Shown here: piece by piece, positions 3,626 through 62,447 of the stretch
Position numbering within the stretch: the stretch's first letter is position 1
Layout of the letters: each line of letters starts with the position of its first letter
NCBI GenBank assembly: GCA_964612055.1
Contig: CAZTBI010000002.1
Coordinates: 5,632 to 69,631 of the forward strand
DNA: 64,000 nucleotides
Direction of reading: 5' to 3'
DNA from: an uncultured Bdellovibrionales bacterium
GTDB taxonomy: Bacteria; Patescibacteriota; Minisyncoccia; Moranbacterales; UBA1568
Notes under the pieces: model-generated
The model's database searches: none
What the model saw: the letters and a program-made list of their open reading frames with translations, nothing else
Told to the model about the DNA's origin: nothing
Made by a program: the position numbers and the translations under genes

Positions 3626-3636
3626 ACCACTACACA

Positions 3637-4290
3637 TCAATGAATCACCAAGAGAAAAATGTCTGTTAAGAAAAAGAATGTCCAACTTGCTGCCCAAGAA
3701 TACCAGATGGATCGTGAAAAGTAAGCGACCAGACCAGCAAGTGGGCTAAAGACAATGAGCGGTGCTCTTTGCCAAGAGATATCCCCTGAAAGATACAGCA
3801 ACCCTACAAACAACGCTGCTTGGAAAAATACCGCCAAGAGACCAAATGACTTGAGCCACAGGAGTTGCACCAGGCCACGGAAAAACACCTCATAGAGAAG
3901 CGTCGTCAATGAAACCAAGAGCAATTCGTAGAGAAGAAACCAGAAGAAATGGAGCTGTACGGTCACCGGGAAAAAGTAGTGCTCAGTAAAAGATGTATAG
4001 CGACTAAGCAAGAACATTATCCCGAGCGCCAAGGCAACACATAGTATGCCTACGAACACTCCAAGAAAGCTGCTTCCCTCCTGCCAACCCAGATTTTTCA
4101 GGGACTCCTTCAATACTATTTTACTATACAATACCGGAACTACCAAGAAGAATGTCACCCCCACTAAGAGCGTTTGAAAGACTGGATTCACCTTGTCGCT
4201 CTGACTAAAAATCCCAAGAAAAAAGATGGAGCAGAGAACCAAGAGCCCGGTCACGATAAAACGCTTATTTAAAAAAATTTCTTTGGTCAT
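3637..4290 (-). CDS. polytopic membrane protein, CPBP (CAAX protease / Abi)-like intramembrane metalloprotease family, tentative
   Basis: 217 aa, about 6 TM helices; motif YEVFFRGLVQ resembles CPBP motif 1 (EExxxR/FRG); other CPBP motifs not clearly seen. Confidence 0.35.
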   Translation of the reverse strand: MTKEIFLNKRFIVTGLLVLCSIFFLGIFSQSDKVNPVFQTLLVGVTFFLVVPVLYSKIVLKESLKNLGWQEGSSFLGVFVGILCVALALGIMFLLSRYTSFTEHYFFPVTVQLHFFWFLLYELLLVSLTTLLYEVFFRGLVQLLWLKSFGLLAVFFQAALFVGLLYLSGDISWQRAPLIVFSPLAGLVAYFSRSIWYSWAASWTFFFLTDIFLLVIH

Positions 4291-4295
4291 AGGCT

Positions 4296-4874
4296 TTACG
4301 CTACTTTTCTTACTGATTGAGGCTGGTACGCACTGTCATTAGCCGCCTCCTGTTGATACTGAGCATTATTGGCCGCTTCCGTTTCCTGGAAAGCCGCAGC
4401 CGCTCGAGACATCTGATATTCACGGATTCGTTCAGCATTGGTTCTCGCCGTTCCTTCCGCCTCCAGTTGTTTCTGCTCCTTTTTCCAGGCACTACGAGCC
4501 ATCATATAAAGAATTACCACCGTCAATGTCTCCAAAGGAAGAAAATTCAGTCCAAATCCTACTGCCTCTACCAAACTAAAGAACATGAGTACTAAACCCC
4601 GAGTCATCTTGTTGCTCTGCTTCCCTCCCGAGCGGTCGAACAGTGTCATCAGCATCCAAATCAGAAAGGCGAAACAAGCAGTCACGACCGTTCCTATCCC
4701 AGGAAATGACCCTACTGCCGCAAAATCAAGTAAGTCTTTGAGAAGAGCAATTAAGCTTAGCCCCAAATACAACATCGCAGAAGGCTTTTCTCCAGTAAAC
4801 TTTGAGGCATGACTTTGAGTAGTCCTTTTATAGGCCGCCGCCAATATTCTCGCTTGTGGAGGAAGTGGTGCCAT
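4296..4874 (-). CDS. hypothetical membrane protein with Gln/Ala-rich C-terminal tail (T4SS-cluster associated)
   Basis: 192 aa, 3-4 predicted TM segments, C-terminal low-complexity QQEAANDSAYQPQ. Confidence 0.5.
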   Translation of the reverse strand: MAPLPPQARILAAAYKRTTQSHASKFTGEKPSAMLYLGLSLIALLKDLLDFAAVGSFPGIGTVVTACFAFLIWMLMTLFDRSGGKQSNKMTRGLVLMFFSLVEAVGFGLNFLPLETLTVVILYMMARSAWKKEQKQLEAEGTARTNAERIREYQMSRAAAAFQETEAANNAQYQQEAANDSAYQPQSVRKVA

Positions 4875-4886
4875 AACTCTATCTCT

Positions 4887-6887
4887 TTAATTCCCCGCAT
4901 CAAAATCCTTTTTCGCTTCTTCAATCTCGAGGAGCTGACGCGGATCAGAAGTAATAATCTGGTCTTCGCTGTAGGAAGCGATGATCTTGATCGCCGCATG
5001 CTTGGTACCGGCAAAGAATATTCCTTCTCCGACATTACTCTCGAGGAGCAAAAACTTCTCATGATCCGTCAAAAAGAACGTCTCTGCGATAAGCTCAATC
5101 GAGGATGGCGACTGGCGCAAGAGTAACTGAAGCGAAGAGTTGGTAATAATCGGCTTGCCGTAGCGTGACGACATGAAGTCGCTGATATCCTGCGTAATAG
5201 TCGTCAGTCCGGTGTAGTATTTACGACAACGTTTGGCAATACCGAAGAGAAAGCCGGCAGCATCTTCATGCTGCATCATGACCCAGGCCTCATCAACGAC
5301 GACCACCCGCTTCTTCAGCTTGCTCCGAATTTCATTCCAGATAAACTGCAAGATAATATACATAGCAATCGGCCGCAACTCTTCCTCAAGATCACGGATA
5401 TTGAACGCTACCAACTGATTGTCCGTCTCGATATTCGTCTGCTTGTCGAGAAAGCCACCAAAAATACCGTCCGTGTAGCGTTCCAAACGGATCGACAATG
5501 ACTCTGCTCCTTCCATATTCTGAAGCACGGCGTACAAATCTGACATCGTTGGAAACGAAGAGGCATCAAACTGAGAAAAATCACTGCGCTCATTGATATC
5601 TCGAATAGCATACGTCTCTCTGATGGCCCGGTCGAGGATCGAGTCTTCTTCTGGCGTCACTGAGCCCAACATGAGATGAAGAAGACCGATCAAATTAGCA
5701 ATGGAATTCCGGAAGACTCCTTCTGGATCCTCATCATCTACGGCTTTCGGAAGATCAAAAGGGTTCAAGTGGACATCGGAATTCAGAGAAATTTTAAGGA
5801 AACTCCCGCCCACTGCTTCACAGAGGTGTTTGTATTCATTTTCCGGATCGATGATGATAACACTCGAACCAAACATCATCGATCGCAAAACTTCAAGCTT
5901 CACAGTGTAACTTTTTCCAGCACCAGATTTGGCAAACACCACCATGTTGGCATTTTCCATTTTGAAACGATCGAAGAGTATCAGTCCGTTATTATGCCGG
6001 TTGATACCATAGAAAATACCCTGGTTCGAAGAAAGATCAGAAGAAACAAAGGGGAACGTGGTTGAAAGTGGCTCGGTATTCAAGTTATTAGCGACATCGA
6101 GAACATCATTGGCCAGTGGCCGCGTCGCTGAAAATCCCTGATCCATGCGGAGAACGGCTGGTTTGATGTACACCAACTGTGCTTCCAGAATCGACTCAAT
6201 GGCGTGACACTTATCACTCAAATCATCTTCGTCTTTACCATACACCGTCATGTACAAACCGAAACGGAAAAACTTTTCTGTTCCTTGCTGCAGTCTATCA
6301 CGCAAGCCTTCAATATCTTCCAGAGCGGTCTCGAGCATCGGGTCGCGAATCTTACCATCTTCAGCTTCGATATGGATCTGTGACTGCACCTGCGTCGCTG
6401 ACTTCCGCAGATTTTTCATGATTTCCGCCGTATCAATCGGATGGACGAAAAGCGCCGTGTCCATGCTGAAATCAATATTGATGATTGGTGAAAACCAATT
6501 GGTCGAGAGATAGCGTGGATAGGCAACCACGAAGTAGGTCCGGGCCAGAACATTGCCAACCTGCATACTATTGGAGCTCAATTTGATTGCTGGTGGAGCA
6601 ATCAAGTCCCGGAGCGTAGCCACTCCTTTTTTATACAAGGCATCCGCTTCCTTTGAAGCCTCGCCTTTGCCAAAAAGAGATGGGTTGGCCATAGGATTCA
6701 TCCGAGGAAGCGGAGCGGCCGGAACCACTGGTATTGCTTTCTCTATCTTTTCTTCAGGCAGAGCTTCTGGAACAACTGCTTCTGTCTGAGGCTCTGCTGT
6801 TTCTTCAGATACTGGAGACGATGAAGTAGGTGTGAGAGTTTTTCCCAGTACCGGACCCTTATCATCTCTGAAAACTATCCTTTCCAT
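4887..6887 (-). CDS. virB4: VirB4/TrbE/CagE-family T4SS ATPase, C-terminal ATPase portion
   Basis: Walker A VVFAKSGAGKSYTV, Walker B VVVVDEAWVMM, length and order typical of the VirB4 C-terminal domain. Confidence 0.85.
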   Translation of the reverse strand: MERIVFRDDKGPVLGKTLTPTSSSPVSEETAEPQTEAVVPEALPEEKIEKAIPVVPAAPLPRMNPMANPSLFGKGEASKEADALYKKGVATLRDLIAPPAIKLSSNSMQVGNVLARTYFVVAYPRYLSTNWFSPIINIDFSMDTALFVHPIDTAEIMKNLRKSATQVQSQIHIEAEDGKIRDPMLETALEDIEGLRDRLQQGTEKFFRFGLYMTVYGKDEDDLSDKCHAIESILEAQLVYIKPAVLRMDQGFSATRPLANDVLDVANNLNTEPLSTTFPFVSSDLSSNQGIFYGINRHNNGLILFDRFKMENANMVVFAKSGAGKSYTVKLEVLRSMMFGSSVIIIDPENEYKHLCEAVGGSFLKISLNSDVHLNPFDLPKAVDDEDPEGVFRNSIANLIGLLHLMLGSVTPEEDSILDRAIRETYAIRDINERSDFSQFDASSFPTMSDLYAVLQNMEGAESLSIRLERYTDGIFGGFLDKQTNIETDNQLVAFNIRDLEEELRPIAMYIILQFIWNEIRSKLKKRVVVVDEAWVMMQHEDAAGFLFGIAKRCRKYYTGLTTITQDISDFMSSRYGKPIITNSSLQLLLRQSPSSIELIAETFFLTDHEKFLLLESNVGEGIFFAGTKHAAIKIIASYSEDQIITSDPRQLLEIEEAKKDFDAGN

Positions 6888-6898
6888 GAAAACGAAAT

Positions 6899-7588
6899 TT
6901 AAGCGAGTTCTATCTTCTCTATATTTTTCAAGTCCGTCGTCGTGAAGAGTGACGGATTGTAGCTGTTGTAGAGCAATTCTATGATCTCTTCCGTATTGAG
7001 CTGCGTCACCTTGATACCTGTAGAAGAGAGTGCGGCCGCGATGTGATCCACTCGTTGCAACAACTGACTCCTATACGTTTCAAACAACTCCCCCTTCGAG
7101 CGAACCGCTTGTTTGGGACTAAAAATACCCATCATCTTGGCCACAAAACCTCCTTCTTGATCTTCTACTGGAGAAAATGGCACCACGATATAAAAAAACT
7201 TGGACATGATATTTGAGACCTCGCTCAAGTTCTTGATGAACGCTTTGTACTCGCCGATCTGAAAACGGAGGAGTTCGTTTTGCTGCTGTTTCTCTTCGTC
7301 ATCAAGCTGCTCCATGTACGGGGCAATATTGAAGCGACGGGACTGAATGACGATCTGCACTGGAAAATCGAGCGAATTCAGAAATGCCTGGTACTGAGCA
7401 ATAATCGCTTCTTGTTCCTGGCCAGATTTAAGATCGAAATTAAGCGAAGAAACCAGAAGCACTGCTCGCAGGGCGCCTGATTTCAAAACAATCACACCGT
7501 CGCGCATTTCTTCAACATCGACGTACTTCTGAGTACTCGAGGCGCTATTGGTTCGTTTTTTTGGTTTCAAAAACTCCATACACACCAA
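6899..7588 (-). CDS. VirB4 N-terminal domain (Gram-positive PrgJ/Orf16-type), separate ORF
   Basis: YVDVEEMRDGVIVLKSGALRAVLLVSSLNFDLKSGQEQEAIIAQYQAFLNSLDFPVQIVIQS matches the characteristic N-terminal region of Gram-positive VirB4 homologs; ends 11 nt upstream of the ATPase ORF in a different frame. Confidence 0.65.
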   Translation of the reverse strand: MVCMEFLKPKKRTNSASSTQKYVDVEEMRDGVIVLKSGALRAVLLVSSLNFDLKSGQEQEAIIAQYQAFLNSLDFPVQIVIQSRRFNIAPYMEQLDDEEKQQQNELLRFQIGEYKAFIKNLSEVSNIMSKFFYIVVPFSPVEDQEGGFVAKMMGIFSPKQAVRSKGELFETYRSQLLQRVDHIAAALSSTGIKVTQLNTEEIIELLYNSYNPSLFTTTDLKNIEKIELA

Positions 7589-7666
7589 ATATCAATTATC
7601 AGCTCGCATCAATCATACTCGTTTCAACTCACCGCTCTTCTTCGTTGATTGCTCTTTGCTCTCTGT

Positions 7667-8071
7667 TTACTGTCTCCTGTCCATAATACGAGCTAACTCT
7701 TTCAGTGTATCACGGGTCAGTTGCTTTTCAGGTTGCACCTCTTCTTGTGGCTTGTTATTTTCGGAACGAGATTTTACGGAAACCATCGGCATAACTGGAC
7801 GCTCCCAAACAGCCACCTTGGGACGAAAGAGAAAAAGCACCGCCTGTCCGATAAAGGATGATAGGGTAAAACCATTAGGCTTATAAAAAGCCAGAGCGAT
7901 AAACAGGAGCACTACCGGAATACCAAACACAATGGCTAAAGTCGTTCCAAAGGTCGTAAACAAAACCAGGAGCACCGCTCCCATAGCAATCATCCAGAGC
8001 AACTGCCGCCATGTTAGTGGACCAGCAATCTTGTCTTCGACATCAACGAATTGTGGAACACTCGACATCAT
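7667..8071 (-). CDS. PrgI-family / VirB3-like small membrane protein
   Basis: 134 aa; FVDVEDKIAGPLTWRQLLWMIAMGAVLLV followed by two TM helices; placed immediately upstream of VirB4 as in Gram-positive T4SS. Confidence 0.5.
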   Translation of the reverse strand: MMSSVPQFVDVEDKIAGPLTWRQLLWMIAMGAVLLVLFTTFGTTLAIVFGIPVVLLFIALAFYKPNGFTLSSFIGQAVLFLFRPKVAVWERPVMPMVSVKSRSENNKPQEEVQPEKQLTRDTLKELARIMDRRQ

Positions 8072-8089
8072 ATGCTTGAATATATTCTC

Positions 8090-9169
8090 TTACTCTTCTT
8101 TCCCGAGACTCACCGGTCGAATATGAAAGGGGTTTGCCTTGGGCATCGGAGCCCGAGGCGCCATTCTTTGTGGCATATTCTGCGGTTCCGGTGCCGTTCT
8201 TTCCTGCGGGATAGCCTGCGCTTTTTCTGCTGGCAGAACATGTTTCGAAGAAAACGAGAGGGTCCCTGACTGTTCTGGTGCAGCTGTTTTTGGGGTATTC
8301 ATAGTGGTAGTACCAAAATGAAAACTGGCACTATTTTGCAAAGGAGCCATTCTCGATGGAGCAACAGCTTGTGGTACTGGTCGTGGCGCCTGCGGGGCGA
8401 CAAAGGTCGGGAAAAGAACCAGGCTCTGCTCGGTATCGATTTCCAAAGGAAAGTTCTCTTCTACAGACTTAAGCACGAGGTTGACTCGCTCCCGTTCTTC
8501 CGGAGAAAGTCGCTTCCCATTCTCCGAACGAAAGAGGAAATTCCCACGCTGCACACTATCATGGTGCCCCACCCCCAGTTCATCGCGGTAATACTTGATC
8601 CAATAGAGAAGCGACGGACGGACTGGTTCACTTTGAGATTTGATTTTGATGCGCTCGCGAGTAATAAGTTGGTTACCCAACTGTTCATATTTGGAAAGGG
8701 CTTGAAGGAGCGGCAGCTTCACCGTTACTACAACTTGCTTTTTCTCCTCTTCAGACACTTCCTCAACTTTCACTTTCGGTTTGATAGTCAGAATTTCTTT
8801 CTGAATAAACTCAACAATAGCCTTAGCTTGATTCGGATCACCTCCACCACTCTCAGTGAGCATACTTGCAATTCTTGCCTCCAGTTCTGTGAGCTGTATC
8901 TCACCAAAAAAGAGTTCCCGAACAATCAAACTTACACTTCCTATAACAGAATCCTTTAGTTTTACTTTTTCCTGTAGGGACTTGATTTTTTGCGGCATTT
9001 CACTAGAAAGAATCACTTCTTGCTTATCCTGAGAAAGCTTTTCGAAGGCATCCCAAACAGACTGATCATCCTCAGGGGACATCTTTTCTTCCGTACCTTC
9101 CTTTGATACTACCATCGGATAATACCGCCGCTCTTTAATTTTTTTTTCACCTAGACCAAACATTGGCAT
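8090..9169 (-). CDS. hypothetical soluble protein with Pro-rich C-terminus (T4SS-cluster associated)
   Basis: 359 aa, no TM, C-terminal APQAPRPVPQAVAPS...PQRMAPRAPMP low complexity. Confidence 0.5.
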   Translation of the reverse strand: MPMFGLGEKKIKERRYYPMVVSKEGTEEKMSPEDDQSVWDAFEKLSQDKQEVILSSEMPQKIKSLQEKVKLKDSVIGSVSLIVRELFFGEIQLTELEARIASMLTESGGGDPNQAKAIVEFIQKEILTIKPKVKVEEVSEEEKKQVVVTVKLPLLQALSKYEQLGNQLITRERIKIKSQSEPVRPSLLYWIKYYRDELGVGHHDSVQRGNFLFRSENGKRLSPEERERVNLVLKSVEENFPLEIDTEQSLVLFPTFVAPQAPRPVPQAVAPSRMAPLQNSASFHFGTTTMNTPKTAAPEQSGTLSFSSKHVLPAEKAQAIPQERTAPEPQNMPQRMAPRAPMPKANPFHIRPVSLGKEE

Positions 9170-9181
9170 GATTCTCCAATT

Positions 9182-11185
9182 CTATGGATTAATTCCTGCC
9201 GCTCTCCATGCTGCTTTTTGTTCAGCAGTCAACTTGCTATAAGCATCAGCATGTTCCTTCGGTGACCAGTTTCCACTATGAACCTGATCAGTGACGTAGG
9301 CTATGGTTTCAGCATCAACAGGACGTCCAGTCCCACCATGCACCCCTTTAACCTTTCCGAGATCTTCAGCAGACATTCCGCCTAGATGCTTGTTATAAGC
9401 ATCTTGCCTCGTCATACCAGTAGCAATATCATTGTCAATCAATACTTTTGTATGTCCCTCTTTTTTAAGCTTCTGATCAAGCTTATCTTTAATCGCAGGA
9501 TTTGTAGCAACCATACCCTGATACTGGGCAGTAGTCATACCGTCGAAAGCTTTAGCGTCCATCTTATCAACAAGTTGAGCGATCGATTTTGTGTCGTTAC
9601 CCAAATGAGAAATAGCCGAAACCAAAGTATTGGCATCTCTAAATAATTCTTTGTCGGCTTTTTTGATAAGCTCAGCGCGCTTTTCATTTTGAGCCGCAGG
9701 ATTACCCGCATTCGCGACATCGACAGCTGCCAAACCTTGATTAAGTTGGGCGGCATCTTGGAAGCCTCCGCGCTTTGATAACAACCGAACCGCTGCTTCC
9801 AATGAAGCTTTATCGTGTTTAGTAGGATCAGCAACCATTGCTCGCAACTGAGTATCACTGGTTCGCTCTTCTTCCATCCTCTTCTCCTCTTCGGAGACTT
9901 TTTTGTTATGTTGACTCTCGACAGTTCGACGATATCCAGTCTTTCCTTCTCCCACATATGCAGCCAACCTTCCTTCGCTCTTCTCGCTAGAATCTTTCCA
10001 GTACTTAGGAGTGGCAAATCTTAGAACTTTATTATTTTCGGCACGACTCTTCAGGCCTTTTCCGACGCCTCTTGTCAACGTGTTATTATAGGTTTTCCTT
10101 CCTGCCCATTTAGCAAATTTTTGCCCCGTACCAGCTACAGCGCCGGCACCCATGATAGACATGGAAGTTGCCAGTCCAATCGCCATCCACAGCATAATCA
10201 TGGGGACGGTAAACATGGCCATAGAGCTAATAAAGCCAGCAGAAGTCGGGGCAGTATTAGCAGTCGCAGAATCAATAAATTGTTTCACCGTGTTGTCCTT
10301 CGCTATTTCTGCAAAAAAACGCGTAGCAACCATGAGCATAAGAGCTGCTGCTGGACCAAAAAACGTATACTGCCACAGTTTATCCCACCACATACCGCCA
10401 TATTTTCCGAGTCCCGGGATGACCGAAGCGGCAAAGCCGACAGAAGAAAAAATAAGAAGGATCACCAAGGCCGCTATACGAATCACAAATAGTATCGCCA
10501 AGACAAGCAGCGAAATTGAAAAGATGAACAGGAATACAATGGCCATGAGAATCTGTGACACTCCCATGCTTGTAAAATCAACCTCTTGGATACCACCCTT
10601 TGATCCAGGAATGAGGATGTTTTGAATTTGCGAAGCACTCAAAACTGTTCCCAGATAATCTTTCTGGTTTGTACCATCTCCAGTAGCCCCTATTTGATTA
10701 ATAAAGTAGTACATCGGGACATTGGTCACATCGATAATAATCCGGGTAATAGGGAAACTGAAGTTCACAAAGAGCGCCGCCAAGACAATGCTGAGCAATG
10801 TTTTCTTGTAGTTGCTCGCTACCTGAAAAACGATAGTAAAGGCAGTATAAAGAAGCGTCAGGATAAAGAAGAGGTTGAAAAAATCTCGAACAAACTGCCA
10901 CATGGTGTAGACACTGGCACGATTGAGCAGCCCATCTGATCCAGAGATATAATCCGGATTCACTGCCCATTCAAAAAGCGTAATAGCTATTGAGGCGAGC
11001 CAGCCAATCATCACAAAAACACCGTAGAGAAGAGCCTTGAATGCAGATCCTACGGTATTCCCAAGCAAATCGCCAAGACCAGCGTGCACCAAAGACGGGC
11101 TTAGAAAAAATATTCCCGATGCAAAAGCAAGAAGCGTGAAAGCAGAGACGACGATATTTTGTCTTTTGTTTTTTTTGAACACCAT
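9182..11185 (-). CDS. VirB6/TrbL-like polytopic membrane protein with C-terminal soluble domain
   Basis: 667 aa, N-terminal signal/TM then 6 or more TM helices over about 350 aa, hydrophilic C-terminal about 300 aa; position and topology as PrgH/TcpH/VirB6. Confidence 0.5.
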   Translation of the reverse strand: MVFKKNKRQNIVVSAFTLLAFASGIFFLSPSLVHAGLGDLLGNTVGSAFKALLYGVFVMIGWLASIAITLFEWAVNPDYISGSDGLLNRASVYTMWQFVRDFFNLFFILTLLYTAFTIVFQVASNYKKTLLSIVLAALFVNFSFPITRIIIDVTNVPMYYFINQIGATGDGTNQKDYLGTVLSASQIQNILIPGSKGGIQEVDFTSMGVSQILMAIVFLFIFSISLLVLAILFVIRIAALVILLIFSSVGFAASVIPGLGKYGGMWWDKLWQYTFFGPAAALMLMVATRFFAEIAKDNTVKQFIDSATANTAPTSAGFISSMAMFTVPMIMLWMAIGLATSMSIMGAGAVAGTGQKFAKWAGRKTYNNTLTRGVGKGLKSRAENNKVLRFATPKYWKDSSEKSEGRLAAYVGEGKTGYRRTVESQHNKKVSEEEKRMEEERTSDTQLRAMVADPTKHDKASLEAAVRLLSKRGGFQDAAQLNQGLAAVDVANAGNPAAQNEKRAELIKKADKELFRDANTLVSAISHLGNDTKSIAQLVDKMDAKAFDGMTTAQYQGMVATNPAIKDKLDQKLKKEGHTKVLIDNDIATGMTRQDAYNKHLGGMSAEDLGKVKGVHGGTGRPVDAETIAYVTDQVHSGNWSPKEHADAYSKLTAEQKAAWRAAGINP

Positions 11186-11332
11186 ACGTTACGAAAAGAA
11201 GATCCACTTCCCATTCTCAAACAAAAGGGGAATTTTCCGAACACTTTCGTCAAAATTATACCATACAAGAGAAGAAAACAAAAAAGAGCGCTCGCACGAA
11301 ACGCTCTTCTTTTCTTATCTTCTGACACGTTT

Positions 11333-12577
11333 CTAGTAAATGTATCCTTTGATGGCTCGGCTCGTAGCAGAAAGCGTCCGACGACTGGTCTTACCCCAAC
11401 CGACATAGTTCATTTCAGAGACCGTGATCGTACCGCCACTCACTTTTTCTACCAGGGCGACGTGACCATAGTACCGATTCTCAGTGGTTACTACGATGGA
11501 ACCAACCGCGGGCGTTCGCCCAGTCTTGTATCCCATAGCTTTGGCTTTGTAGAGCCAAGTACCAGCATTACCACTCCACGGAACATAGCGTTTCTGAGCC
11601 ACGTACCAGGTACAGTAGCCATACGGAAAGCGATGACCTGTACCAGCTCGCCCTTCGAGCTTCTTGAAACCAGAAGAAATATCAGTCGCTACACCACCTG
11701 TTGAAGTAGCATACTGACGCCGTTCGATGCCGGTATCAGGAGTGACTGGCTTCGGAGCTTCTTCTTTCTTTCCGTCAGGGATGATAATGAGGTCGCCCAC
11801 TTCTATTTCACCATTCGCTGGCAACTCATTGAAGGCGATAATTTTTTCCTTCTCTGCCTTATACATTGAAGCGATAGAATCAAGGGTATCACCAGACTTC
11901 ACCACATAGGAGAGTCCCGCTACCGGCAAGATAAATATCTGATCGCCTGGCTTGATCTGATCAGCATTGTCGAGGTCGTTAGCCCAGAGAACCGTATTGA
12001 CCGTAATACCGTTCTTCGAGGCGATACCACTTAAGGTATCGCCGTCCTTGACGGTATAGATCTTCACCCCGCCATCTTCTTCTGGGTCACGAGCGATAGA
12101 AGAGCCAGTCTGAGTCGAAAGAAGCACCTGGTTCCCCAAAGTAGCATTCTGAATATCCAAGAGTGAAATATCAGTTTTCTCCTCTGGATCAATAGGAGCA
12201 GGGGCATTGGCAAGCGGCACCAAAGACAGGTTCTCCTTTTTACTAACCTGCGCCGCGATACGATGCTTAGACGAAAGCGCTTCCTCAGCAGAAGCACCGT
12301 CGCCGTTAATATAGCCGAAAAGAAGGCTCTCTGAGTCTTTTCCCTGAGTGAAATTACTCACCGAAACGAGTAAAGCGCTCGAAGTGACGATAGAAAAGGC
12401 TGAATAGTTTCGAAAAATACGTACGACTCGATAGCCGGAAACTTCCTTGATAAAATGAAGCACTCTCGTCTGAAGACGGTGAAGGCGAGTATGCAAAGCG
12501 TAGGAAGAGACAGGATAGTCTCTTTTTTCCTTCACGTGAGGAGCGCGTTTCCAAGGAAACGATAAACGCTCTTTCAC
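11333..12577 (-). CDS. peptidoglycan hydrolase with two LysM domains and C-terminal CHAP domain (VirB1 functional analog)
   Basis: LysM motifs YTVKDGDTLSGIASKNGITV and YVVKSGDTLDSIASMYKAEKEKI; CHAP catalytic Cys (YGYCTWYV) and His (YGHVALVEKV); N-terminal TM anchor. Confidence 0.8.
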   Translation of the reverse strand: MKERLSFPWKRAPHVKEKRDYPVSSYALHTRLHRLQTRVLHFIKEVSGYRVVRIFRNYSAFSIVTSSALLVSVSNFTQGKDSESLLFGYINGDGASAEEALSSKHRIAAQVSKKENLSLVPLANAPAPIDPEEKTDISLLDIQNATLGNQVLLSTQTGSSIARDPEEDGGVKIYTVKDGDTLSGIASKNGITVNTVLWANDLDNADQIKPGDQIFILPVAGLSYVVKSGDTLDSIASMYKAEKEKIIAFNELPANGEIEVGDLIIIPDGKKEEAPKPVTPDTGIERRQYATSTGGVATDISSGFKKLEGRAGTGHRFPYGYCTWYVAQKRYVPWSGNAGTWLYKAKAMGYKTGRTPAVGSIVVTTENRYYGHVALVEKVSGGTITVSEMNYVGWGKTSRRTLSATSRAIKGYIY

Positions 12578-13027: not shown

Positions 13028-13981
13028 ATGACCTCTTTTGAAAAGCCACAGAACGATATCGAAGCTTTAGCCAAGCGCTTTTGTGACCACCTCGAGATAG
13101 AACTCAACCGATCCAGACGGACACTCGAGAGCTATTCTCGGGTGCTGCAGTCCTTCTTTTCCTGGGGAAACATCACTATTCCAGCCGATATTACCGCCGA
13201 AAAGGTCCGGGAATATCGTCTTCACCTGAACCGTAAGTCGAACCGTCGAGGGGAAAGCCTCAAGAAGAACACCCAGTCCTACCACGCTATTGTACTTCGC
13301 ACCTTCCTCAAATACCTCGCTAAACAAGACATCGAGGTCCTGCCAGCTGAAAAAATCGAGGTGGGAAAGGCCGAAGACCGACAGATTGATTTCCTCGAAT
13401 ACGATGAGGTCATGCGTCTGATCGAAGCCGCCTCCGGAAAAACCCCGAAGAACCTCCGTGATCAAGCCATCCTGGAACTTCTTTTTTCTTCGGGGCTGCG
13501 CGTCTCGGAACTCGTCTCACTCGATCGCAACCACGTGAATCTGGAGAAAGAAGAGTTCAGTGTCCGTGGTAAGGGTCGAAAATTACGTATTGTCTTTATT
13601 TCACCTGAAGCCAAGAAATCACTCCAAAAATATCTCGATATCCGCTCTGATGTCGATCCGGCTCTCTTCATCGCCTATCCCAAAAAAGGCCTGGTCAATG
13701 AGAAGAATAGGAAGCGCGAGACACTCCGTCTCACGACCAGGAGCATCGCTCGCATCGTGAAACACTATGCCACCAAGGCTGGAATACTGAAAGATGTCCA
13801 TCCGCACACCCTGCGTCACAGTTTTGCCACGGATCTTTTGGTTAATGGTGCCGATATCAGATCAGTACAAGCCATGCTTGGACATGCCTCCATCACTACC
13901 ACTCAGATCTACACCCACGTCACCAACGAACGCCTGAAAGAAGTCCATCAATCCTTCCACGCCAAAAGAAAAAAGAAGTGA
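13028..13981 (+). CDS. xerD: tyrosine site-specific recombinase XerC/XerD family
   Basis: C-terminal catalytic box HPHTLRHSFATDLLVNGADIRSVQAMLGHASITTTQIYTHV; RSRRTLESYSRVL N-terminal SAM-like domain. Confidence 0.85.
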   Translation: MTSFEKPQNDIEALAKRFCDHLEIELNRSRRTLESYSRVLQSFFSWGNITIPADITAEKVREYRLHLNRKSNRRGESLKKNTQSYHAIVLRTFLKYLAKQDIEVLPAEKIEVGKAEDRQIDFLEYDEVMRLIEAASGKTPKNLRDQAILELLFSSGLRVSELVSLDRNHVNLEKEEFSVRGKGRKLRIVFISPEAKKSLQKYLDIRSDVDPALFIAYPKKGLVNEKNRKRETLRLTTRSIARIVKHYATKAGILKDVHPHTLRHSFATDLLVNGADIRSVQAMLGHASITTTQIYTHVTNERLKEVHQSFHAKRKKK

Positions 13982-59178: not shown

Positions 59179-60222
59179 ATGACCGAAGAAATGAAGCGCA
59201 ATCTCATGTTCAACCCGAAAGGGGATGATGCCGTTGCGGTACGTACCATCATCAAAGGCGCTACCACCGGGTTATTCAACTTAAACGCTACCAAATACCC
59301 TTGGGCCAAGTCACTCTACCAGGTAATGGTGGGGAACTTCTGGGTACCAGAAAAAGTCTCAGGGCTCAAGGATGACGCTCGCATGTTTCACGCTGACCTG
59401 AGCCCAGATGAACAAAAGGCCTACAAGGGCATCTTGTCCTTCTTGATCTTCCTCGACTCTATCCAAACGGTCAATTTACCGCACTTTGCTGATTACATCA
59501 CCTCTCCTGAGGTCAATCTCATCCTGGCAATTCAGGCCTATCAAGAAGCTATTCACTCACAATCCTACGCTACTATCCTCGAATCCGTAGTGGAAAGTGA
59601 GGAACGCGACGAGATCTATTACTTTTGGCGCACTGATGAGACACTCCTCAAACGCAACAAGTATATTGGTCAAATCTACCAGGATTTCACGGATAATCCT
59701 TCTGATAAGACCTTTTTCCGCGGTATTGTGGCCAATTTCCTCCTCGAATCCATCTACTTCTACAATGGTTTCGCCTTCTTCGATACCTTGGTAGACCACA
59801 TGAAGATGCTCGCTACCGGCCGCATGATCGCTTATATCCGCCGCGATGAACTGACTCATGTCACTATCTTTGCCAATATCATCCGAGAAATTAAGCGTGA
59901 ATTCCCGGAAATCTACGACGAAGCCCTGATCAAAGAAATGATGGCGGAGGCAGTGCGACAGGAAGTCGAATGGGGCAAGCATATCCTAGGTAACAAAATT
60001 CCTGGCATTAGCGGCGAAGCGACCGAAAGCTACACCAAATGGCTCGCCAATAACCGGCTTGCTATGCTCAATATCGACCCGCTCTATCCAGAGGCTGTCA
60101 CCAACCCGTACAAACACCTCGATCGCCTCCAAGACACCAATAGCGACAAAGGAAACTTCTTTGAGACAACCGTCGTAAACTACACGCAGTCAACCAGCAT
60201 GAAGGGCAGTTGGGACTTCTAA
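59179..60222 (+). CDS. nrdB: class I ribonucleotide reductase beta subunit (ferritin-like di-iron)
   Basis: Di-iron ligand motifs FLDSIQTVN..., QEAIHSQSYATILES, GFAFFDTL...ELTHVTIF; 347 aa. Confidence 0.85.
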   Translation: MTEEMKRNLMFNPKGDDAVAVRTIIKGATTGLFNLNATKYPWAKSLYQVMVGNFWVPEKVSGLKDDARMFHADLSPDEQKAYKGILSFLIFLDSIQTVNLPHFADYITSPEVNLILAIQAYQEAIHSQSYATILESVVESEERDEIYYFWRTDETLLKRNKYIGQIYQDFTDNPSDKTFFRGIVANFLLESIYFYNGFAFFDTLVDHMKMLATGRMIAYIRRDELTHVTIFANIIREIKREFPEIYDEALIKEMMAEAVRQEVEWGKHILGNKIPGISGEATESYTKWLANNRLAMLNIDPLYPEAVTNPYKHLDRLQDTNSDKGNFFETTVVNYTQSTSMKGSWDF

Positions 60223-60254: not shown

Positions 60255-60283
60255 GATATCCCGGATCAGTCCGGGATTTTTTC
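60255..60283 (+). terminator. rho-independent terminator after nrdB
   Basis: ATCCCGGA(tcagt)CCGGGAT followed by TTTTTTCT. Confidence 0.6.
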
Positions 60284-60331
60284 TGAAAAAATGTGCTATA
60301 CTAGCGGGGTAGTATAGCTTCTTTTTTTACT

Positions 60332-61282
60332 ATGAAAAAAAATATAAAAGCCTTCTTAGTAGTTTTAGGTCTTCTCTCGATGAGCTTCGCCTTTACTCCA
60401 GAAACCAGAGCTCAAGCTCCTCAGGCTGGACTTCAGTATCAACTCTTGGAAAAAATTCCTTTCACGAACGACGTTAGCGGCAGTGATCTCCCGAGCTACG
60501 TCAGCGCGCTCTATAAAGTAGCCCTCATTGTTGTCACGCTCTCAGCCGTCCTCATGCTCTCTATTGGTGGTTTCATGTACCTAACCAGTGCTGGCAACAC
60601 CGCTTCCATGGGGAATGCCAAGGGCATTATTTATGACTCTCTCATCGGTCTCGTTATTGCTCTTGCTGCCTGGCTTATCCTCTATATCATCAACCCTGAT
60701 CTGGTCAAAATAAGTTTGAAGGTTCTCCCTCCCGTGACGCCCTTAACCGGTCAAGCAGGGACTCCAGAGGGTCTCGGCACACTCCCTCCTGAAAGCACAG
60801 TCGAACTCGCCAAACAAATCCTTGCCAGTGGAAATATCAACCTGGCTTCTTCTGGAAGCTGCAAAAGCCCAAGCGGCACAGTTTCTCCGAGAAAAAATAT
60901 TGAGGATGTGGCCGCCGGAAAAAGGATGGCTGCTTGTTATGCTGGCCCGAGATGCGTCGCTGAAGGGGAAAGAGGCTGCGCAGATGATGCCGTACGCCCA
61001 AGCGAGACCATGCTCAAAGCTATTTGGACTGTCGGCCAGAGCCAGCGATTCACCATCACCAGTATGAGCGGCGGACCACACGGCGCGAATTCCGCTCACT
61101 ACAAAGGCCAGGCCATCGATATCTCTCCCGCTACTCAAGCGCTGATGGATGCCTTCACCAAGGAAGGAGCGGCGGCACCGAATGGCCAAAGTGCCTCTAT
61201 GTGCGAAAATGAAAATGGCAAGAATGTTGGTTGCGCCCAAGGCAGCGGAGCTGACCATATCCACCTCGTTTTCCCGAATTAG
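60332..61282 (+). CDS. fusion protein: N-terminal TrbC/VirB2-pilin-like domain plus C-terminal M15 (VanY/LAS-type) zinc peptidase domain
   Basis: Signal peptide, then two TM helices (VALIVVTLSAVLMLSIGGFMYL ... LIGLVIALAAWLILYII) separated by a short loop as in VirB2/TrbC pilins; C-terminus has SGGPHGANSAHYKGQAIDIS (H-x6-D) and GADHIHLVF (D-x-H) zinc-peptidase motifs. Confidence 0.55.
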   Translation: MKKNIKAFLVVLGLLSMSFAFTPETRAQAPQAGLQYQLLEKIPFTNDVSGSDLPSYVSALYKVALIVVTLSAVLMLSIGGFMYLTSAGNTASMGNAKGIIYDSLIGLVIALAAWLILYIINPDLVKISLKVLPPVTPLTGQAGTPEGLGTLPPESTVELAKQILASGNINLASSGSCKSPSGTVSPRKNIEDVAAGKRMAACYAGPRCVAEGERGCADDAVRPSETMLKAIWTVGQSQRFTITSMSGGPHGANSAHYKGQAIDISPATQALMDAFTKEGAAAPNGQSASMCENENGKNVGCAQGSGADHIHLVFPN

Positions 61283-61310: not shown

Positions 61311-62447
61311 ATGGCGAAAAAGATTTTTTTCTTTTCTTTGGGTTTTTTTATCCTAGTACTCATCTTTCTCGGTGCCTACAACTTTGCTTTTAAGAATAAC
61401 GTTAACGATCCCGTCGCCGACCCAACCAAGAAAGAGTTTGGGAAAGAAGAGGAAGTCGTCGCTTCACCAGAGAGTATTACCAATCCTATCAATGAGGCTG
61501 TCTTAGGAGCGACAGCGGGAGAGGATGAGGCGCTTTACTATTACTCTCTCGATGACCAGTCACTGAAGAAAGCCACACTTGAGGGAAGAAACAAGACCGT
61601 CCTCATGAGTAACCTCCCTGGGACTGCCAGCCGCGTCCTCTGGTCACCCAAGAAAGACAAGGTTCTCCTGCTCTTGAAACAATCGGGTACTGGCGGCACA
61701 CTCTGGTATAGTGCCAATGTCACCACCAAATCACTCACCCCGCTCAAAGCCGAGATGTCACGCCTCACCTGGGATAATCTGGGGGAAAAACTTTTCTATC
61801 AATATACTGATCCGACTTCCGGAAAACGTTCCTTAAATATTGCTAACACTGATGGTAGCGCTTGGAAAAAGTTAGCTGATCTCGGAACGAAAGATTCTTT
61901 TCTCGCTTCTGTTCCACAAAGTAGTCTGGTATCGTTTTGGGCACGACCTCTGGCCAGAGAAAAATCACCCCTTGAGACTGTGAACACTGTAGGCGAGAGT
62001 CGTCGCACCCTCTCGGGAGACTTTTTTGGCAGTGATTACTCCTGGGCACCCAATGGCGAAAATATCGTCATAAGTGGCAGCAATACGAGCGACGGCAGCC
62101 CTTCGCTCCGTGTTCTCCCAAGCACCGGAGGAAAAGCGAGTGACCTCTCAATCCCAACACTTATTTCAAAAACAACCTGGTCCAAAGACGGGCGCACTCT
62201 CTACTACGCACTTCCAGGTGCTCTGCCAGAAGGATCCATTCTCCCCGATGACTACTTCGGAAAACCTCTCTACACCAAGGACACTTTTTGGAAGGTAGAT
62301 GTCGTCACTGGTAAAAAAACACGCCTCATTGAATTGAAAGAAAACACCCAGGCTCTCGATAGTAGCGACCTCTTCCTTTCACCAAAAGAAGATTTCCTCT
62401 ACTTTACTGACCGTGTCAGTAAACGCCTCTACAGCATAGAACTCTAA
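61311..62447 (+). CDS. membrane-anchored beta-propeller (TolB/PD40-like) protein
   Basis: Start at MAKKIFFFSLGFFILVLIFLGAY (TM anchor); repeated ...LYY.S.D...G...L... blades; start chosen to avoid overlap with upstream gene. Confidence 0.5.
   Translation: MAKKIFFFSLGFFILVLIFLGAYNFAFKNNVNDPVADPTKKEFGKEEEVVASPESITNPINEAVLGATAGEDEALYYYSLDDQSLKKATLEGRNKTVLMSNLPGTASRVLWSPKKDKVLLLLKQSGTGGTLWYSANVTTKSLTPLKAEMSRLTWDNLGEKLFYQYTDPTSGKRSLNIANTDGSAWKKLADLGTKDSFLASVPQSSLVSFWARPLAREKSPLETVNTVGESRRTLSGDFFGSDYSWAPNGENIVISGSNTSDGSPSLRVLPSTGGKASDLSIPTLISKTTWSKDGRTLYYALPGALPEGSILPDDYFGKPLYTKDTFWKVDVVTGKKTRLIELKENTQALDSSDLFLSPKEDFLYFTDRVSKRLYSIEL

What the first reader, a model, noticed from the sequence alone, without database searches (positions are those of the whole stretch)
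60332..61282. Pilin-like (VirB2/TrbC-type) N-terminal domain fused to an M15/VanY-type zinc peptidoglycan peptidase
The N-terminal 130 aa have the signal-peptide, TM, short loop, TM layout and G/A-rich helices of T4SS pilins. The C-terminal about 150 aa carry the LAS-peptidase zinc ligands (H-x6-D: SAHYKGQAIDIS; D-x-H: ADHIH). A pilin-anchored cell-wall peptidase is an unusual architecture. It could locally remodel host or self peptidoglycan at the T4SS or pilus, and be the in trans pilin missing from the cluster at 0.8-12.6 kb.
Basis: partly seen in the sequence, partly recalled or inferred. Interest (0 to 1): 0.6.

Follow-up and report, generated by a model that had tools for sequence, protein, structure and literature searches.

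The report
Secretion-system pilin fused to wall-cutting enzyme
An ultrasmall (Moranbacteria, CPR) bacterium encodes a protein whose front half is a type IV secretion pilin and whose back half looks like a zinc enzyme that cuts bacterial cell wall; in related species the back half is swapped for other wall-cutting enzymes, which hints at how these bacteria breach cell walls.

Summary
ORF 60332-61282 (+, 316 aa) has four parts:
- a signal peptide;
- a two-helix pilin module (Pfam PF18895, just above threshold);
- a disordered Pro-rich linker;
- a 167-aa Cys-rich C-terminal domain.

The C-terminal domain models confidently (pLDDT 93). Its best structural matches are all Hedgehog/DD-peptidase (LAS) folds. 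Across 206 homologous domains H250, H256, D263 and H309 are invariant, and H311 and E292 are nearly so. This matches the Hedgehog/M15A active site. It is not VanY. The conserved second motif is H-x-H, not D-x-H.

The window lies in a Moraniibacteriota (CPR) genome. In 14 of 80 related species the orthologous gene sits directly behind the same T4SS cluster that lies at 0.8-12.6 kb here. This supports the "in trans pilin" idea.

The replacements are divergent LAS classes, SLT lysozymes or NlpC/P60. Tandem copies share 98-99% identical DNA over the pilin core only.

Best reading: a T4SS-linked pilin or membrane anchor carrying an exchangeable peptidoglycan hydrolase. The target wall (host or self) is unresolved. 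I found no description of this fusion in the literature. I rate it a new variant of a known kind.

The parts
60258..60283 (+). Intrinsic-terminator-like hairpin plus T-run. It ends the upstream ribonucleotide reductase small-subunit gene (59179-60222) and separates it from the pilin gene.
   Evidence: The terminator scan finds 8 pairs followed by TTTTTCTG. Equivalent hairpins occur at the same place in related loci.
60294..60302 (+). Extended -10 promoter element TGcTATACT, about 30 nt upstream of the ATG. It indicates the gene has its own promoter.
   Evidence: TGTGnTATAaT is conserved at the same distance from the start codon in L010-L035. The consensus scan did not call it because there is no -35 element. 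Its function is inferred.
60332..60412 (+). Sec-type signal peptide (aa 1-27, MKKNIKAFLVVLGLLSMSFAFTPETRA). Cleavage after A27 or A29 is inferred.
   Evidence: Sequence. The AF2 model has a helix at aa 5-20 followed by a disordered stretch at aa 24-35. No signal-peptide predictor was run.
60422..60715 (+). VirB2-like T4SS pilin module (aa 31-128). It comprises the conserved Y-x-LLE-x-IP motif, helix 1 (aa 53-88), the loop TSAGNTAS, helix 2 (aa 93-120) and the INPDL end.
   Evidence: PF18895 matches aa 59-120 at 27.5 bits, above the 26.6 cut-off. The helical hairpin is in the AF2 model. Invariant residues come from alignment A1. It is the only such module in the window.
60716..60778 (+). Pro/Thr/Gly-rich disordered linker (aa 129-149). 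This is where the exchangeable C-terminal cassette joins the pilin core.
   Evidence: pLDDT is below 50 for aa 129-148. In L039 and L063 near-identical DNA between tandem paralogues ends in this linker.
60779..61279 (+). Extracytoplasmic Cys-rich LAS-fold (Hedgehog/M15A-like) zinc peptidase-like domain (aa 150-316). Predicted Zn ligands are H256, D263 and H311. Predicted catalytic residues are H250, H309 and E292. There are six conserved Cys.
   Evidence: AF2 gives pLDDT 92.8 and pTM 0.89. Foldseek PDB hits are and viral hits. The profile matches Shh. Residue conservation over 206 domains is.
61311..62447 (+). 378-aa membrane-anchored TolB-like beta-propeller protein. It is the invariable downstream neighbour of the pilin gene and a possible functional partner.
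   Evidence: It follows the pilin gene in essentially all related loci with enough flank. It has a weak TIGR02800 TolB match, E 0.0026, no Pfam hit and no PDB hit.
803..12577 (-). Monoderm-type T4SS cluster to which the pilin gene belongs functionally. Its genes are: LysM-CHAP hydrolase (11333-12577); VirB6-like polytopic protein (9182-11185, assigned only from its multiple hydrophobic segments and its position in the cluster, no family hit); a 359-aa protein; PrgI/VirB3-like (7667-8071); TrsD-like (6899-7588); VirB4 (4887-6887); a 192-aa membrane protein; Rce1/CPBP-like (3637-4290); and a 964-aa surface protein (803-3697).
   Evidence: Pfam results are and NCBIfam. The same gene order ends directly in the pilin gene in L003/L029, L061, L067, L072, L084, L087 and L088. 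Orthology rests.

Best explanation
The gene encodes a component of the chromosomal, monoderm-type type IV secretion system of a Moraniibacteriota (CPR/Patescibacteria) bacterium.

**Proposed mechanism.**
1. The protein is exported by Sec and the signal peptide is removed.
2. The VirB2-like helical hairpin inserts in the membrane with both ends outside.
3. The C-terminal domain therefore lies outside the cell on a flexible Pro-rich linker.
4. That domain is a disulfide-stabilised zinc metallopeptidase of the LAS (Hedgehog/DD-peptidase, M15A-like) fold. Predicted Zn ligands are H256, D263 and H311, with H250, H309 and E292 acting in catalysis.
5. It most likely cleaves peptide stems or cross-links of peptidoglycan.
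6. Because it is covalently tied to the pilin, wall cutting is confined to the place where the T4SS conduit or pilus is built or makes contact.

**Evolution of the enzyme half.** The enzyme half is an exchangeable cassette. At the same locus other species carry divergent LAS classes, SLT or lysozyme-like domains, or NlpC/P60 on an almost unchanged pilin core.

**Target wall.** I favour the wall of the partner or host cell, with the domain displayed on the pilus exterior. This is inference, at about 50%. Opening the bacterium's own wall for T4SS assembly is the alternative, at about 30-35%.

**Shown versus inferred.** Shown: the architecture, the fold, conservation of the active-site residues, T4SS synteny and cassette exchange. 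Inferred: export topology, catalysis, substrate, incorporation into a pilus and the target.
For: **Architecture.** PF18895 scores above threshold. AF2 shows a hairpin, a disordered linker and a confident C-domain.

**Fold.** The top 26 PDB Foldseek hits are all LAS. These are Hedgehog N-domains (prob 0.85-0.97), VldE, S. albus Zn DD-peptidase 1lbu, RB49 L-Ala-D-Glu peptidase, and LysECD7. LdcB (4oxd, rank 33) is a further LAS hit lower in the list. Viral hits are phage M15A peptidases, murein endopeptidase K and tape-measure lysin domains.

**Active site.** H250, H256, D263 and H309 are 100% conserved, H311 98%, and E292 is E/D in 97% of 206 domains. These align with the GHHSEESLHYEGRAVDI motif of Shh.

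**Peptidoglycan context of the domain family.**
- Non-CPR relatives P0245 and P0255 carry two PG_binding_1 domains in front of the same domain.
- P0181 carries it next to an SLT domain.

**T4SS link.**
- In L003/L029, L061, L067, L072, L084, L087 and L088 the gene is the next gene after VirB6-like, PrgI, TrsD, VirB4, Rce1-like and the giant protein.
- In six further GTDB loci it follows the Rce1-like and giant genes, or the giant gene alone where the upstream flank is short (L043, L083). The total is 14 of 80 species.
- The window's 803-3697 and 3637-4290 are orthologues of those upstream genes.
- No other pilin module exists in the 64-kb window.

**Cassette exchange.**
- C-domains fall into class A (27), B (21), D (14), C (11), SLT-like (about 7) and NlpC/P60 (1).
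- Classes B and D are remote homologues of A (hhalign 95% and 93%).
- Class does not follow N-module similarity.
- In L039 and L063 tandem genes share 374 bp at 99.2% and 322 bp at 98.4% identity over the pilin core only.

**Literature.** Patescibacterial T4SSs resemble monoderm conjugation systems, have VirB2-like pilins, usually lack relaxases, and are essential for epibiotic growth in S. epibionticum (PMC12102498, PMC10633639, PMC12857230).
Against: - The PF18895 score is only 0.9 bit above threshold. No solved VirB2/TraA pilin is matched by sequence. The structural match to a conjugative pilus (8dfu) is weak.
- No Pfam peptidase model reaches its threshold. Foldseek E-values are modest (about 0.02, TM about 0.35).
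- In this window, and in most species, the gene is not next to the T4SS. It follows ribonucleotide reductase and precedes envelope-polysaccharide genes.
- A 170-aa globular domain on every subunit may be sterically hard to pack on a VirB2-type filament.
- No T4SS pilus has been seen in any Patescibacterium.
- The T4SS cluster already has its own LysM-CHAP hydrolase.
- Hedgehog, the closest fold, is not an established peptidase.
Confidence: 0.65

Rival explanations
1. It is a housekeeping autolysin. The two-helix N-terminus serves only as a membrane anchor. The enzyme remodels the bacterium's own wall for growth or division, or for envelope-polysaccharide assembly, independently of the T4SS.
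For: In the window, and in about 65 of 80 species, the gene lies between ribonucleotide reductase (or SOD) and a conserved beta-propeller/Wzy/glycosyltransferase envelope block near dnaA, not next to the T4SS. It has its own promoter. The PF18895 score is borderline.
Against: The N-module is a specific, highly conserved PF18895 member, not a generic anchor. In 14 of 80 species it directly continues the T4SS operon. Standalone CPR pilins sit beside it in L084 and L087. Frequent replacement of the catalytic domain by enzymes of different bond specificity is unusual for a housekeeping autolysin.
Confidence: 0.12
2. It is a non-catalytic, Hedgehog-like binding domain. The C-terminal domain keeps a metal site but acts as an adhesin that binds host wall or glycan, so the protein is a pilus adhesin rather than an enzyme.
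For: The closest structures and the only near-significant sequence hits are Hedgehog signalling domains. No peptidase HMM passes its threshold. The VanX-type acid at position 308 is not conserved.
Against: All six residues that correspond to the Hh/M15A catalytic set are conserved. The same position is filled in other species by SLT domains that keep the catalytic Glu ('CQESGGN') and by NlpC/P60 domains that keep 'DCSDL...GHV'. Relatives combine the domain with PG_binding_1 or SLT, as enzymes do.
Confidence: 0.1
3. It is a polymorphic toxin or effector. The conserved pilin-like N-terminus is a delivery module. The variable C-terminus is a cell-wall toxin that is cleaved off, perhaps by the neighbouring CPBP-like protein, and injected to kill competitors.
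For: A conserved N-terminus with a highly variable C-terminal enzyme, recombination boundaries in a linker, and tandem paralogues with identical N-modules are hallmarks of polymorphic toxins. Peptidoglycan-hydrolase effectors of antibacterial T4SSs are known (PMC8740702, listed).
Against: No variable immunity-like gene follows. The downstream gene is the same conserved beta-propeller whatever the C-domain class, with only about 10-90 nt between the genes in the loci whose coordinates I examined. The protein has a Sec signal peptide and membrane hairpin rather than a T4SS C-terminal secretion signal. The CPBP-like protein scores below threshold.
Confidence: 0.1

Closest known systems
VirB2-like T4SS pilins of Patescibacteria (Pfam PF18895; the essential pilin array of Southlakia epibionticum; Quinonero-Coronel 2025, Wang 2023)
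   Same: The family HMM matches above threshold. The layout is a signal peptide plus a two-helix hairpin. The gene is associated with an MPF-FATA-like, relaxase-less chromosomal T4SS near dnaA.
   Different: Described pilins are small standalone proteins, often in arrays of 2-11. This one is usually a single gene of about 300 aa with a C-terminal enzyme domain. In this window it lies 48 kb from the T4SS genes. The papers read do not mention such fusions.
Cell-wall hydrolases of monoderm conjugative T4SSs (VirB1 analogues: PrgK of pCF10, TraG of pIP501, CwlT of ICEBs1, TcpG)
   Same: An N-terminal membrane anchor precedes extracytoplasmic peptidoglycan hydrolase domain(s). The gene is encoded with VirB4, VirB6 and PrgI. 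The choice of hydrolase type is modular (SLT, CHAP/NlpC-P60, metallopeptidase). Details of these named proteins are from my own knowledge and from PMC12102498.
   Different: Here the anchor is a VirB2-type pilin module rather than a simple TM segment. The hydrolase is a new LAS subfamily. A separate LysM-CHAP enzyme is also present in the cluster.
LAS metallopeptidases of the Hedgehog/DD-peptidase fold: Streptomyces albus Zn D-Ala-D-Ala carboxypeptidase (MEROPS M15A, PDB 1lbu) and the Hedgehog N-terminal domain
   Same: The fold matches. The S-x-H-x-x-G-x-A-x-D and H-x-H motifs are present, with an extra upstream His and a Glu. Non-CPR relatives share the PG_binding_1 plus catalytic-domain architecture of 1lbu.
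   Different: No Pfam M15 or HH_signal model reaches its threshold. There is an extra N-terminal subdomain, six conserved Cys, and a disulfide-loop insertion between E292 and H309. TM-scores are only about 0.35.
Phage virion-associated lysins (M15A peptidase domains in tail or tape-measure proteins; murein endopeptidase K)
   Same: A LAS peptidase is tethered to a filament or tube-forming structural protein so that wall cutting is local and acts from outside. The functional analogy is inference.
   Different: The carrier protein and machinery are different. Only remote structural similarity was found.

Membership tests
Pfam PF18895 T4SS_pilin (Patescibacterial VirB2-like pilins) | Match to the family HMM at or above the gathering score | tested here: met
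   27.5 bits against a cut-off of 26.6, E 3.4e-6, aa 59-120. Most homologues carry a precomputed PF18895 hit. The margin is small.
Pfam PF18895 T4SS_pilin (Patescibacterial VirB2-like pilins) | Signal peptide followed by two hydrophobic helices joined by a short polar loop | tested here: met
   AF2 shows helices at aa 5-20, 53-88 and 93-120, with the loop TSAGNTAS between the last two. GGFMY-TSAGN is invariant.
Pfam PF18895 T4SS_pilin (Patescibacterial VirB2-like pilins) | Encoded in or next to a T4SS gene cluster | tested here: inconclusive
   Not adjacent in this window: the T4SS is at 0.8-12.6 kb and the gene at 60.3 kb. The orthologue is directly downstream of the T4SS operon, or of its last genes, in 14 of 80 species.
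Pfam PF18895 T4SS_pilin (Patescibacterial VirB2-like pilins) | Small standalone protein that polymerises into a pilus | not testable with these tools
   The protein is 316 aa with an extra domain, so the size criterion is not met. Polymerisation cannot be tested here.
Pfam PF04956 TrbC/VirB2 | Match to the family HMM | tested here: not met
   No hit even at E<=10. No solved VirB2/TraA chain is matched by the family profile.
LAS metallopeptidases / Hedgehog-DD-peptidase fold (Pfam clan Peptidase_MD) | Zn-ligand triad: His-x(3-6)-Asp plus a C-terminal His in an H-x-H motif | tested here: met
   H256-x6-D263 and H309-x-H311. These are 100%, 100%, 100% and 98% conserved in 206 domains.
LAS metallopeptidases / Hedgehog-DD-peptidase fold (Pfam clan Peptidase_MD) | The characteristic fold | tested here: met
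LAS metallopeptidases / Hedgehog-DD-peptidase fold (Pfam clan Peptidase_MD) | Zinc binding and peptidase activity | not testable with these tools
   This needs biochemistry.
MEROPS M15B / VanY (PF02557) | HMM match, and an E-x-x-H motif with a conserved catalytic acid three residues before the last His | tested here: not met
   No PF02557 hit. Position 308 is D in 40%, N in 28%, T in 13%.
MEROPS M15A (PF08291 Peptidase_M15_3; S. albus DD-carboxypeptidase) | HMM match; H-x-H motif; often an N-terminal PG_binding_1 domain | tested here: inconclusive
   Only sub-threshold PF08291 hits, in 5 of 24 members. H-x-H is present. 1lbu is a Foldseek hit at E 0.41. Homologous domains follow PG_binding_1 in P0245 and P0255.
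Monoderm T4SS cell-wall hydrolases (VirB1 analogues: PrgK/TraG/CwlT type) | Membrane-anchored extracytoplasmic peptidoglycan hydrolase encoded with VirB4/VirB6/VirB3-like genes | tested here: inconclusive
   The architecture and the synteny in relatives fit. Positional replacements are SLT and NlpC/P60. There is no homology to TrsG/CD419-type profiles, and activity is untested.
Polymorphic toxin systems | Variable C-terminal toxin followed by a co-varying immunity gene | tested here: not met
   The variable C-terminus is present. The downstream gene is the same conserved beta-propeller regardless of class, and the intergenic gap is too short for another gene.

The most novel reading that the evidence does not exclude
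The T4SS filament of Moraniibacteriota is an enzyme-armed pilus. Its VirB2-like subunit, apparently the only one in genomes like this, displays a peptidoglycan hydrolase on the pilus surface or tip. This hydrolase drills through the host cell wall. The hydrolase 'head' is swapped by recombination in the linker (LAS classes, SLT, NlpC/P60) to match host wall chemistry or evade host defences. The head would therefore act as a host-range determinant for these unculturable epibionts.
Probability: 0.3. Interest if true: 0.85.

Novelty: new variant of a known kind. Interest (0 to 1): 0.62.

Why it matters
The T4SS and its pilins are among the few systems shown to be essential for the epibiotic life of Patescibacteria. 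Their function is described as completely unknown (PMC11665869, PMC10633639).

A pilin covalently joined to a cell-wall hydrolase gives a concrete, testable function: local breaching of a peptidoglycan layer at the contact or assembly site. The exchangeable enzyme domain, attached to a core kept near-identical by gene conversion, is a candidate marker of host specificity that could be read directly from metagenomes.

The work also defines a sizeable LAS/Hedgehog-like domain family that Pfam does not capture. It has about 1000 clusters at 50% identity and occurs mostly in this fusion. These proteins are currently annotated only as 'pilin' or 'hypothetical protein'.

Tried and rejected
- **Sequence search against PDB.** phmmer with the whole protein gave nothing. 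The full-length profile A1 gave only the Hedgehog motif and no pilin.
- **Foldseek with the full-length model.** It was swamped by generic helical-hairpin hits and was uninformative. I therefore modelled the C-domain alone.
- **Second pilin in the window.** A pilin-module HMM run against all six-frame ORFs of at least 40 aa found only the target.
- **VanY/M15B assignment.** Rejected: no HMM hit, and position 308 is not conserved.
- **Polymorphic toxin with immunity gene.** Rejected as the main reading because the downstream gene is invariant.
- **Palindrome at 60295-60318 as a regulatory hairpin or terminator.** It overlaps a conserved extended -10 element, and the palindrome itself is not conserved in relatives.
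- **Word-indexed search with the C-domain profile.** It retrieved only 28 pilin fusions. The exhaustive HMMER scan was needed to find non-pilin relatives.
- **Literature.** Searches for any description of pilin-hydrolase fusions in CPR found none.
- **Downstream beta-propeller.** No PDB hit, no Pfam hit, and only a weak TolB-like NCBIfam hit.
Full report
**1. The observation**

The ORF at 60332-61282 (+) is real and encodes 316 aa. Pfam places aa 59-120 in PF18895 (T4SS_pilin) at 27.5 bits, against a gathering score of 26.6, E 3.4e-6. The only other listed hit is a weak Peptidase_M15_4 match at aa 252-280 (12.2 bits, E 0.28). TrbC/VirB2 (PF04956) and VanY (PF02557) do not appear even at E<=10. 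NCBIfam gives only a sub-threshold hit to a Mycoplasma ICE 'pilin-like conjugal transfer protein'.

The protein has 375 homologues at E<=1e-3. The named ones come from Candidatus Moranbacteria/Moraniibacteriota (Patescibacteria, CPR) and are annotated 'pilin' or 'hypothetical protein'. The window is therefore a CPR genome fragment.

**2. Anatomy**

With a 45-sequence alignment (A1) AlphaFold2 predicts the following:
- an N-terminal helix at aa 5-20, the signal-peptide core;
- a helical hairpin at aa 53-88 and 93-120;
- a disordered Pro/Thr/Gly linker at aa 129-148;
- a confident globular C-terminal domain, with pLDDT 85-98 per 10-residue block.

Modelled alone with a 24-sequence alignment (A2), the C-domain reaches pLDDT 92.8 and pTM 0.89.

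I infer the topology. After signal-peptide cleavage both ends of the hairpin face outward, so the Cys-rich C-domain is extracytoplasmic.

**3. The C-terminal domain**

*Fold.* Foldseek against the PDB returns 21 Hedgehog N-terminal signalling domains as top hits (probability 0.85-0.97, E about 0.02, TM about 0.35). They are followed by the VldE LD-endopeptidase domain, the Streptomyces albus Zn DD-peptidase 1lbu (MEROPS M15A), phage RB49 L-alanoyl-D-glutamate peptidase, and endolysin LysECD7; LdcB appears lower, at rank 33. All are LAS-fold proteins. Against viral models the hits are phage 'Peptidase M15A', murein endopeptidase K and tape-measure proteins with lysin domains.

*Sequence.* A profile of the domain searched against PDB sequences hits Sonic, Indian and Desert hedgehog at the zinc-site motif: GG-H---S-HY-G-A-DI against GHHSEESLHYEGRAVDI (E 0.005). 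Scanned individually, 12 of 24 members give sub-threshold Peptidase_M15_4 hits, 5 give Peptidase_M15_3, 4 give HH_signal and 2 give Extensin-like_C. To my knowledge these Pfam families all belong to one LAS clan.

*Conserved residues.* Over 206 aligned domains H250, H256, D263 and H309 are invariant. H311 is 98% conserved and position 292 is E or D in 97%. By position these six residues correspond to Shh H135, H141, D148, E177, H181 and H183. The H250-H256-D263 correspondence rests on the alignment. The Shh residue numbering, and the E292, H309 and H311 correspondence, come from my own knowledge of the Shh sequence and from the strand order. The site therefore looks like the Hedgehog/M15A (H-x-H) type rather than the VanX/VanY (E-x-x-H) type. 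Six conserved cysteines suggest disulfides, which is consistent with an exported domain.

*Domain family.* An exhaustive HMMER scan of 1.84 billion cluster representatives finds 1033 representatives at E<=1e-3 and 276 at E<=1e-10.
- Of the 135 newly listed representatives, 116 contain the pilin module.
- Most of the rest are fragments.
- P0245 and P0255 carry two PG_binding_1 domains followed by this domain. This is the architecture of 1lbu, whose peptidoglycan-binding domain they hit at E 3e-6.
- P0181 combines a pilin-like N-terminus, this domain and an SLT domain.

These associations support peptidoglycan as the substrate. Catalysis itself is untested.

**4. Link to the T4SS**

The cluster at 0.8-12.6 kb (minus strand) contains the following genes:
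- a LysM-CHAP hydrolase;
- a polytopic VirB6-like protein;
- PrgI/VirB3-like;
- a TrsD-like protein;
- VirB4;
- two small membrane proteins, one of them Rce1/CPBP-like below threshold;
- a 964-aa Cys-rich surface protein.

The cluster contains no pilin, and the target is the only pilin-module ORF in the window.

In a relative with 44% identity (L003 = GCA_028711705.1), the orthologous pilin gene starts 30 bp after the same operon in the same order. In another (L006), it overlaps the end of the giant-protein gene, which is preceded by the Rce1-like gene. BLASTP confirms orthology of the window's 964-aa and Rce1-like proteins with those neighbours: 35% identity at E 2e-164, 33% at E 9e-116, and 37% at E 2e-38.

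Across 80 GTDB species representatives I annotated gene order by BLAST and HMM:
- The pilin gene is followed by the orthologue of window 61311-62447 in essentially every locus with enough flank, and by Wzy-like gene(s) in most.
- Upstream it has RNR-small, as here, in the majority.
- It has the T4SS operon, or that operon's last one or two genes, in 14 loci.
- It has SOD in 6 loci.

Which arrangement is ancestral is not resolved.

Upstream of the gene in the window there is an RNR terminator hairpin. An extended -10 element (TGcTATACT) is conserved in relatives about 30 nt before the ATG. The gene therefore appears to have its own promoter.

**5. The exchangeable C-terminus**

Sixteen of the top 120 homologues keep the pilin module, with overall local identities to the query of 43-72% over 35-82% of its length, but lack the class-A domain. 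Three of these (P0110, P0112, P0099) sit at exactly the same locus: RNR-small, then pilin, then the 378-aa protein, then Wzy.

Clustering the 82 C-terminal regions from the 80 species gives these groups:
- class A, 27 including the window;
- class B, 21 (TGGTE-GH--HG---VD ... HFHLQF);
- class D, 14 (WRITESWPP ... CH-NG-CAD ... HFHV);
- class C, 11 (SCHYGGG ... HIHIS);
- about 7 SLT or lysozyme-like domains (PF01464 or PF18896);
- one NlpC/P60 (PF00877);
- one unknown.

Profile-profile comparison shows that B and D are remote homologues of A (95% at E 3e-8, and 93% at E 3e-7). C matches only marginally (42%).

Class does not track N-module similarity. Proteins with class D or C domains have N-modules 70-77% identical to the window's, while class-A proteins go down to 48%. 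L069 and L071 (class D) are 91% identical in the N-module to L030 (class A).

In L039 two tandem genes share 374 bp at 99.2% identity covering only the pilin core and the start of the linker. They carry SLT and class-A LAS domains respectively. In L063 two genes share 322 bp at 98.4% identity and carry lysozyme-like and NlpC/P60 domains.

The protein is therefore a conserved pilin core joined through a linker to an exchangeable cell-wall-hydrolase cassette. Every identifiable replacement is a peptidoglycan hydrolase. This independently supports that function for class A.

**6. Mechanism**

*Shown:* the architecture, the LAS fold with a fully conserved catalytic-type residue set, the family's association with peptidoglycan-binding and SLT domains, synteny with a monoderm-type T4SS, and cassette exchange.

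*Inferred:* Sec export and hairpin insertion, zinc-dependent cleavage of peptidoglycan peptides, and spatial coupling of that activity to the T4SS conduit or pilus.

Published work supports the context. Patescibacterial T4SSs are MPF-FATA-like, mostly lack relaxases, lie near dnaA and carry VirB2-like pilins. In S. epibionticum the T4SS and its pilin array are essential for epibiotic growth, but their function is unknown. From my own knowledge, the C-terminus of F-type pilins lies on the pilus exterior and tolerates extensions, so display on a filament is conceivable. A 170-aa domain on every subunit may nevertheless be sterically limiting.

I lean towards the host or partner wall as the target for three reasons:
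- the cluster already has a LysM-CHAP enzyme that could serve self-wall opening;
- the rapid cassette turnover looks like adaptation to a variable external target;
- phage virion-associated M15A lysins are the closest functional analogy.

This remains inference. Some genomes (L084, L087) have ordinary standalone CPR pilins beside the fused gene. That would fit a specialised or minor pilin role there.

**7. Rivals**

- *Housekeeping autolysin with a generic anchor.* The usual non-T4SS neighbourhood favours this. The specific pilin module, the synteny and the cassette turnover argue against it.
- *Non-catalytic Hedgehog-like adhesin.* This is possible, given that no peptidase HMM passes its threshold. 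The conserved catalytic set and the replacement by bona fide hydrolases that keep their catalytic motifs argue against it.
- *Polymorphic toxin.* This fits the modularity. However, there is no co-varying immunity gene, and the protein has a Sec signal peptide and a membrane hairpin.

**8. Novelty**

Both halves belong to known kinds: VirB2-like CPR pilins and LAS peptidases. T4SS-associated wall hydrolases are also well known. Three things are new relative to what I could find:
- the covalent fusion of the pilin module to a hydrolase, as the standard form of this pilin in a whole CPR lineage;
- the exchangeable-cassette behaviour at a fixed locus;
- a LAS subfamily of about 1000 clusters that Pfam does not capture.

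Full-text searches and the three key papers contain no description of it. The adjacent accession numbers of PF18895 (T4SS_pilin) and PF18896 (SLT_3) hint that database curators may have seen pilin-lysozyme fusions. That is only a guess.

Verdict: new variant of a known kind, of moderately high interest.

Noticed in passing
window 61311-62447 (+): A 378-aa protein with an N-terminal TM segment and a weak TolB-like beta-propeller signature (TIGR02800, E 0.0026; no Pfam or PDB hit). It follows the pilin gene in essentially all 80 related species, whatever the upstream context or C-domain class. It is a likely functional partner of unknown role. The listed 432-aa ORF starting at 61149 is an upstream in-frame extension that overlaps the pilin gene; relatives start at the position equivalent to 61311.
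   Followed up: partly
window 3637-4290 (-) and 803-3697 (-): An Rce1/CPBP-like polytopic protein (19.6 bits, below the Pfam cut-off of 22.4) and a 964-aa Cys-rich surface protein with a signal peptide and a C-terminal TM anchor. In 14 of 80 species their orthologues sit immediately upstream of the pilin gene. This suggests a pilin-processing or adhesin sub-module of the T4SS.
   Followed up: partly
L039:7076-10055 and L063:9944-13637: Tandem pilin genes share 374 bp (99.2%) and 322 bp (98.4%) of near-identical DNA limited to the pilin core. Their signal peptides or Cys-rich N-terminal regions and their C-terminal hydrolases differ (SLT versus LAS; lysozyme-like versus NlpC/P60). This points to gene conversion or very recent duplication, with cassette boundaries in the linker.
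   Followed up: yes
homologues P0092, P0109, P0110, P0115, P0118; L039: Some family members carry an additional Cys-rich insertion of 80-200 aa between the signal peptide and the pilin module. The N-terminal end of the pilin is therefore also a site of modular additions.
   Followed up: no
window 60295-60318: A perfect 9-bp inverted repeat (GCTATACTA-GCGGGG-TAGTATAGC) followed by a T-run lies just before the start codon and overlaps the conserved extended -10 element. The palindrome is not conserved in relatives, so it may be a lineage-specific operator or leader hairpin, or it may be chance.
   Followed up: partly
window 13028-13981 (+): A tyrosine recombinase (Phage_integrase, E 5.6e-42) lies directly beside the T4SS cluster. 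XerC-like genes also flank the pilin locus in L045 and L063. It could be linked to the rearrangements that separate the pilin gene from the T4SS in different lineages, or it could simply be the chromosomal XerC/D.
   Followed up: no
L084:10976-11593, L087:10986-11516 and L087:11520-12626: These loci carry additional pilins of the usual CPR type (C-x-LCH motif) next to the fused pilin. The first two are standalone. The third is fused to a class-C LAS domain. Some genomes therefore have small mixed arrays of plain and enzyme-bearing pilins.
   Followed up: partly
loci L011-L015, L017, L019 and others: Many GTDB species-representative MAGs that carry this Moraniibacteriota-specific locus are titled 'uncultured Bdellovibrionales bacterium'. 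These are probably taxonomic mislabels in the source records.
   Followed up: no
window 11333-12577 (-): A LysM(x2)-CHAP protein sits at the end of the T4SS cluster. It is a conventional VirB1-analogue wall hydrolase, so this system has at least two different wall-cutting enzymes.
   Followed up: partly
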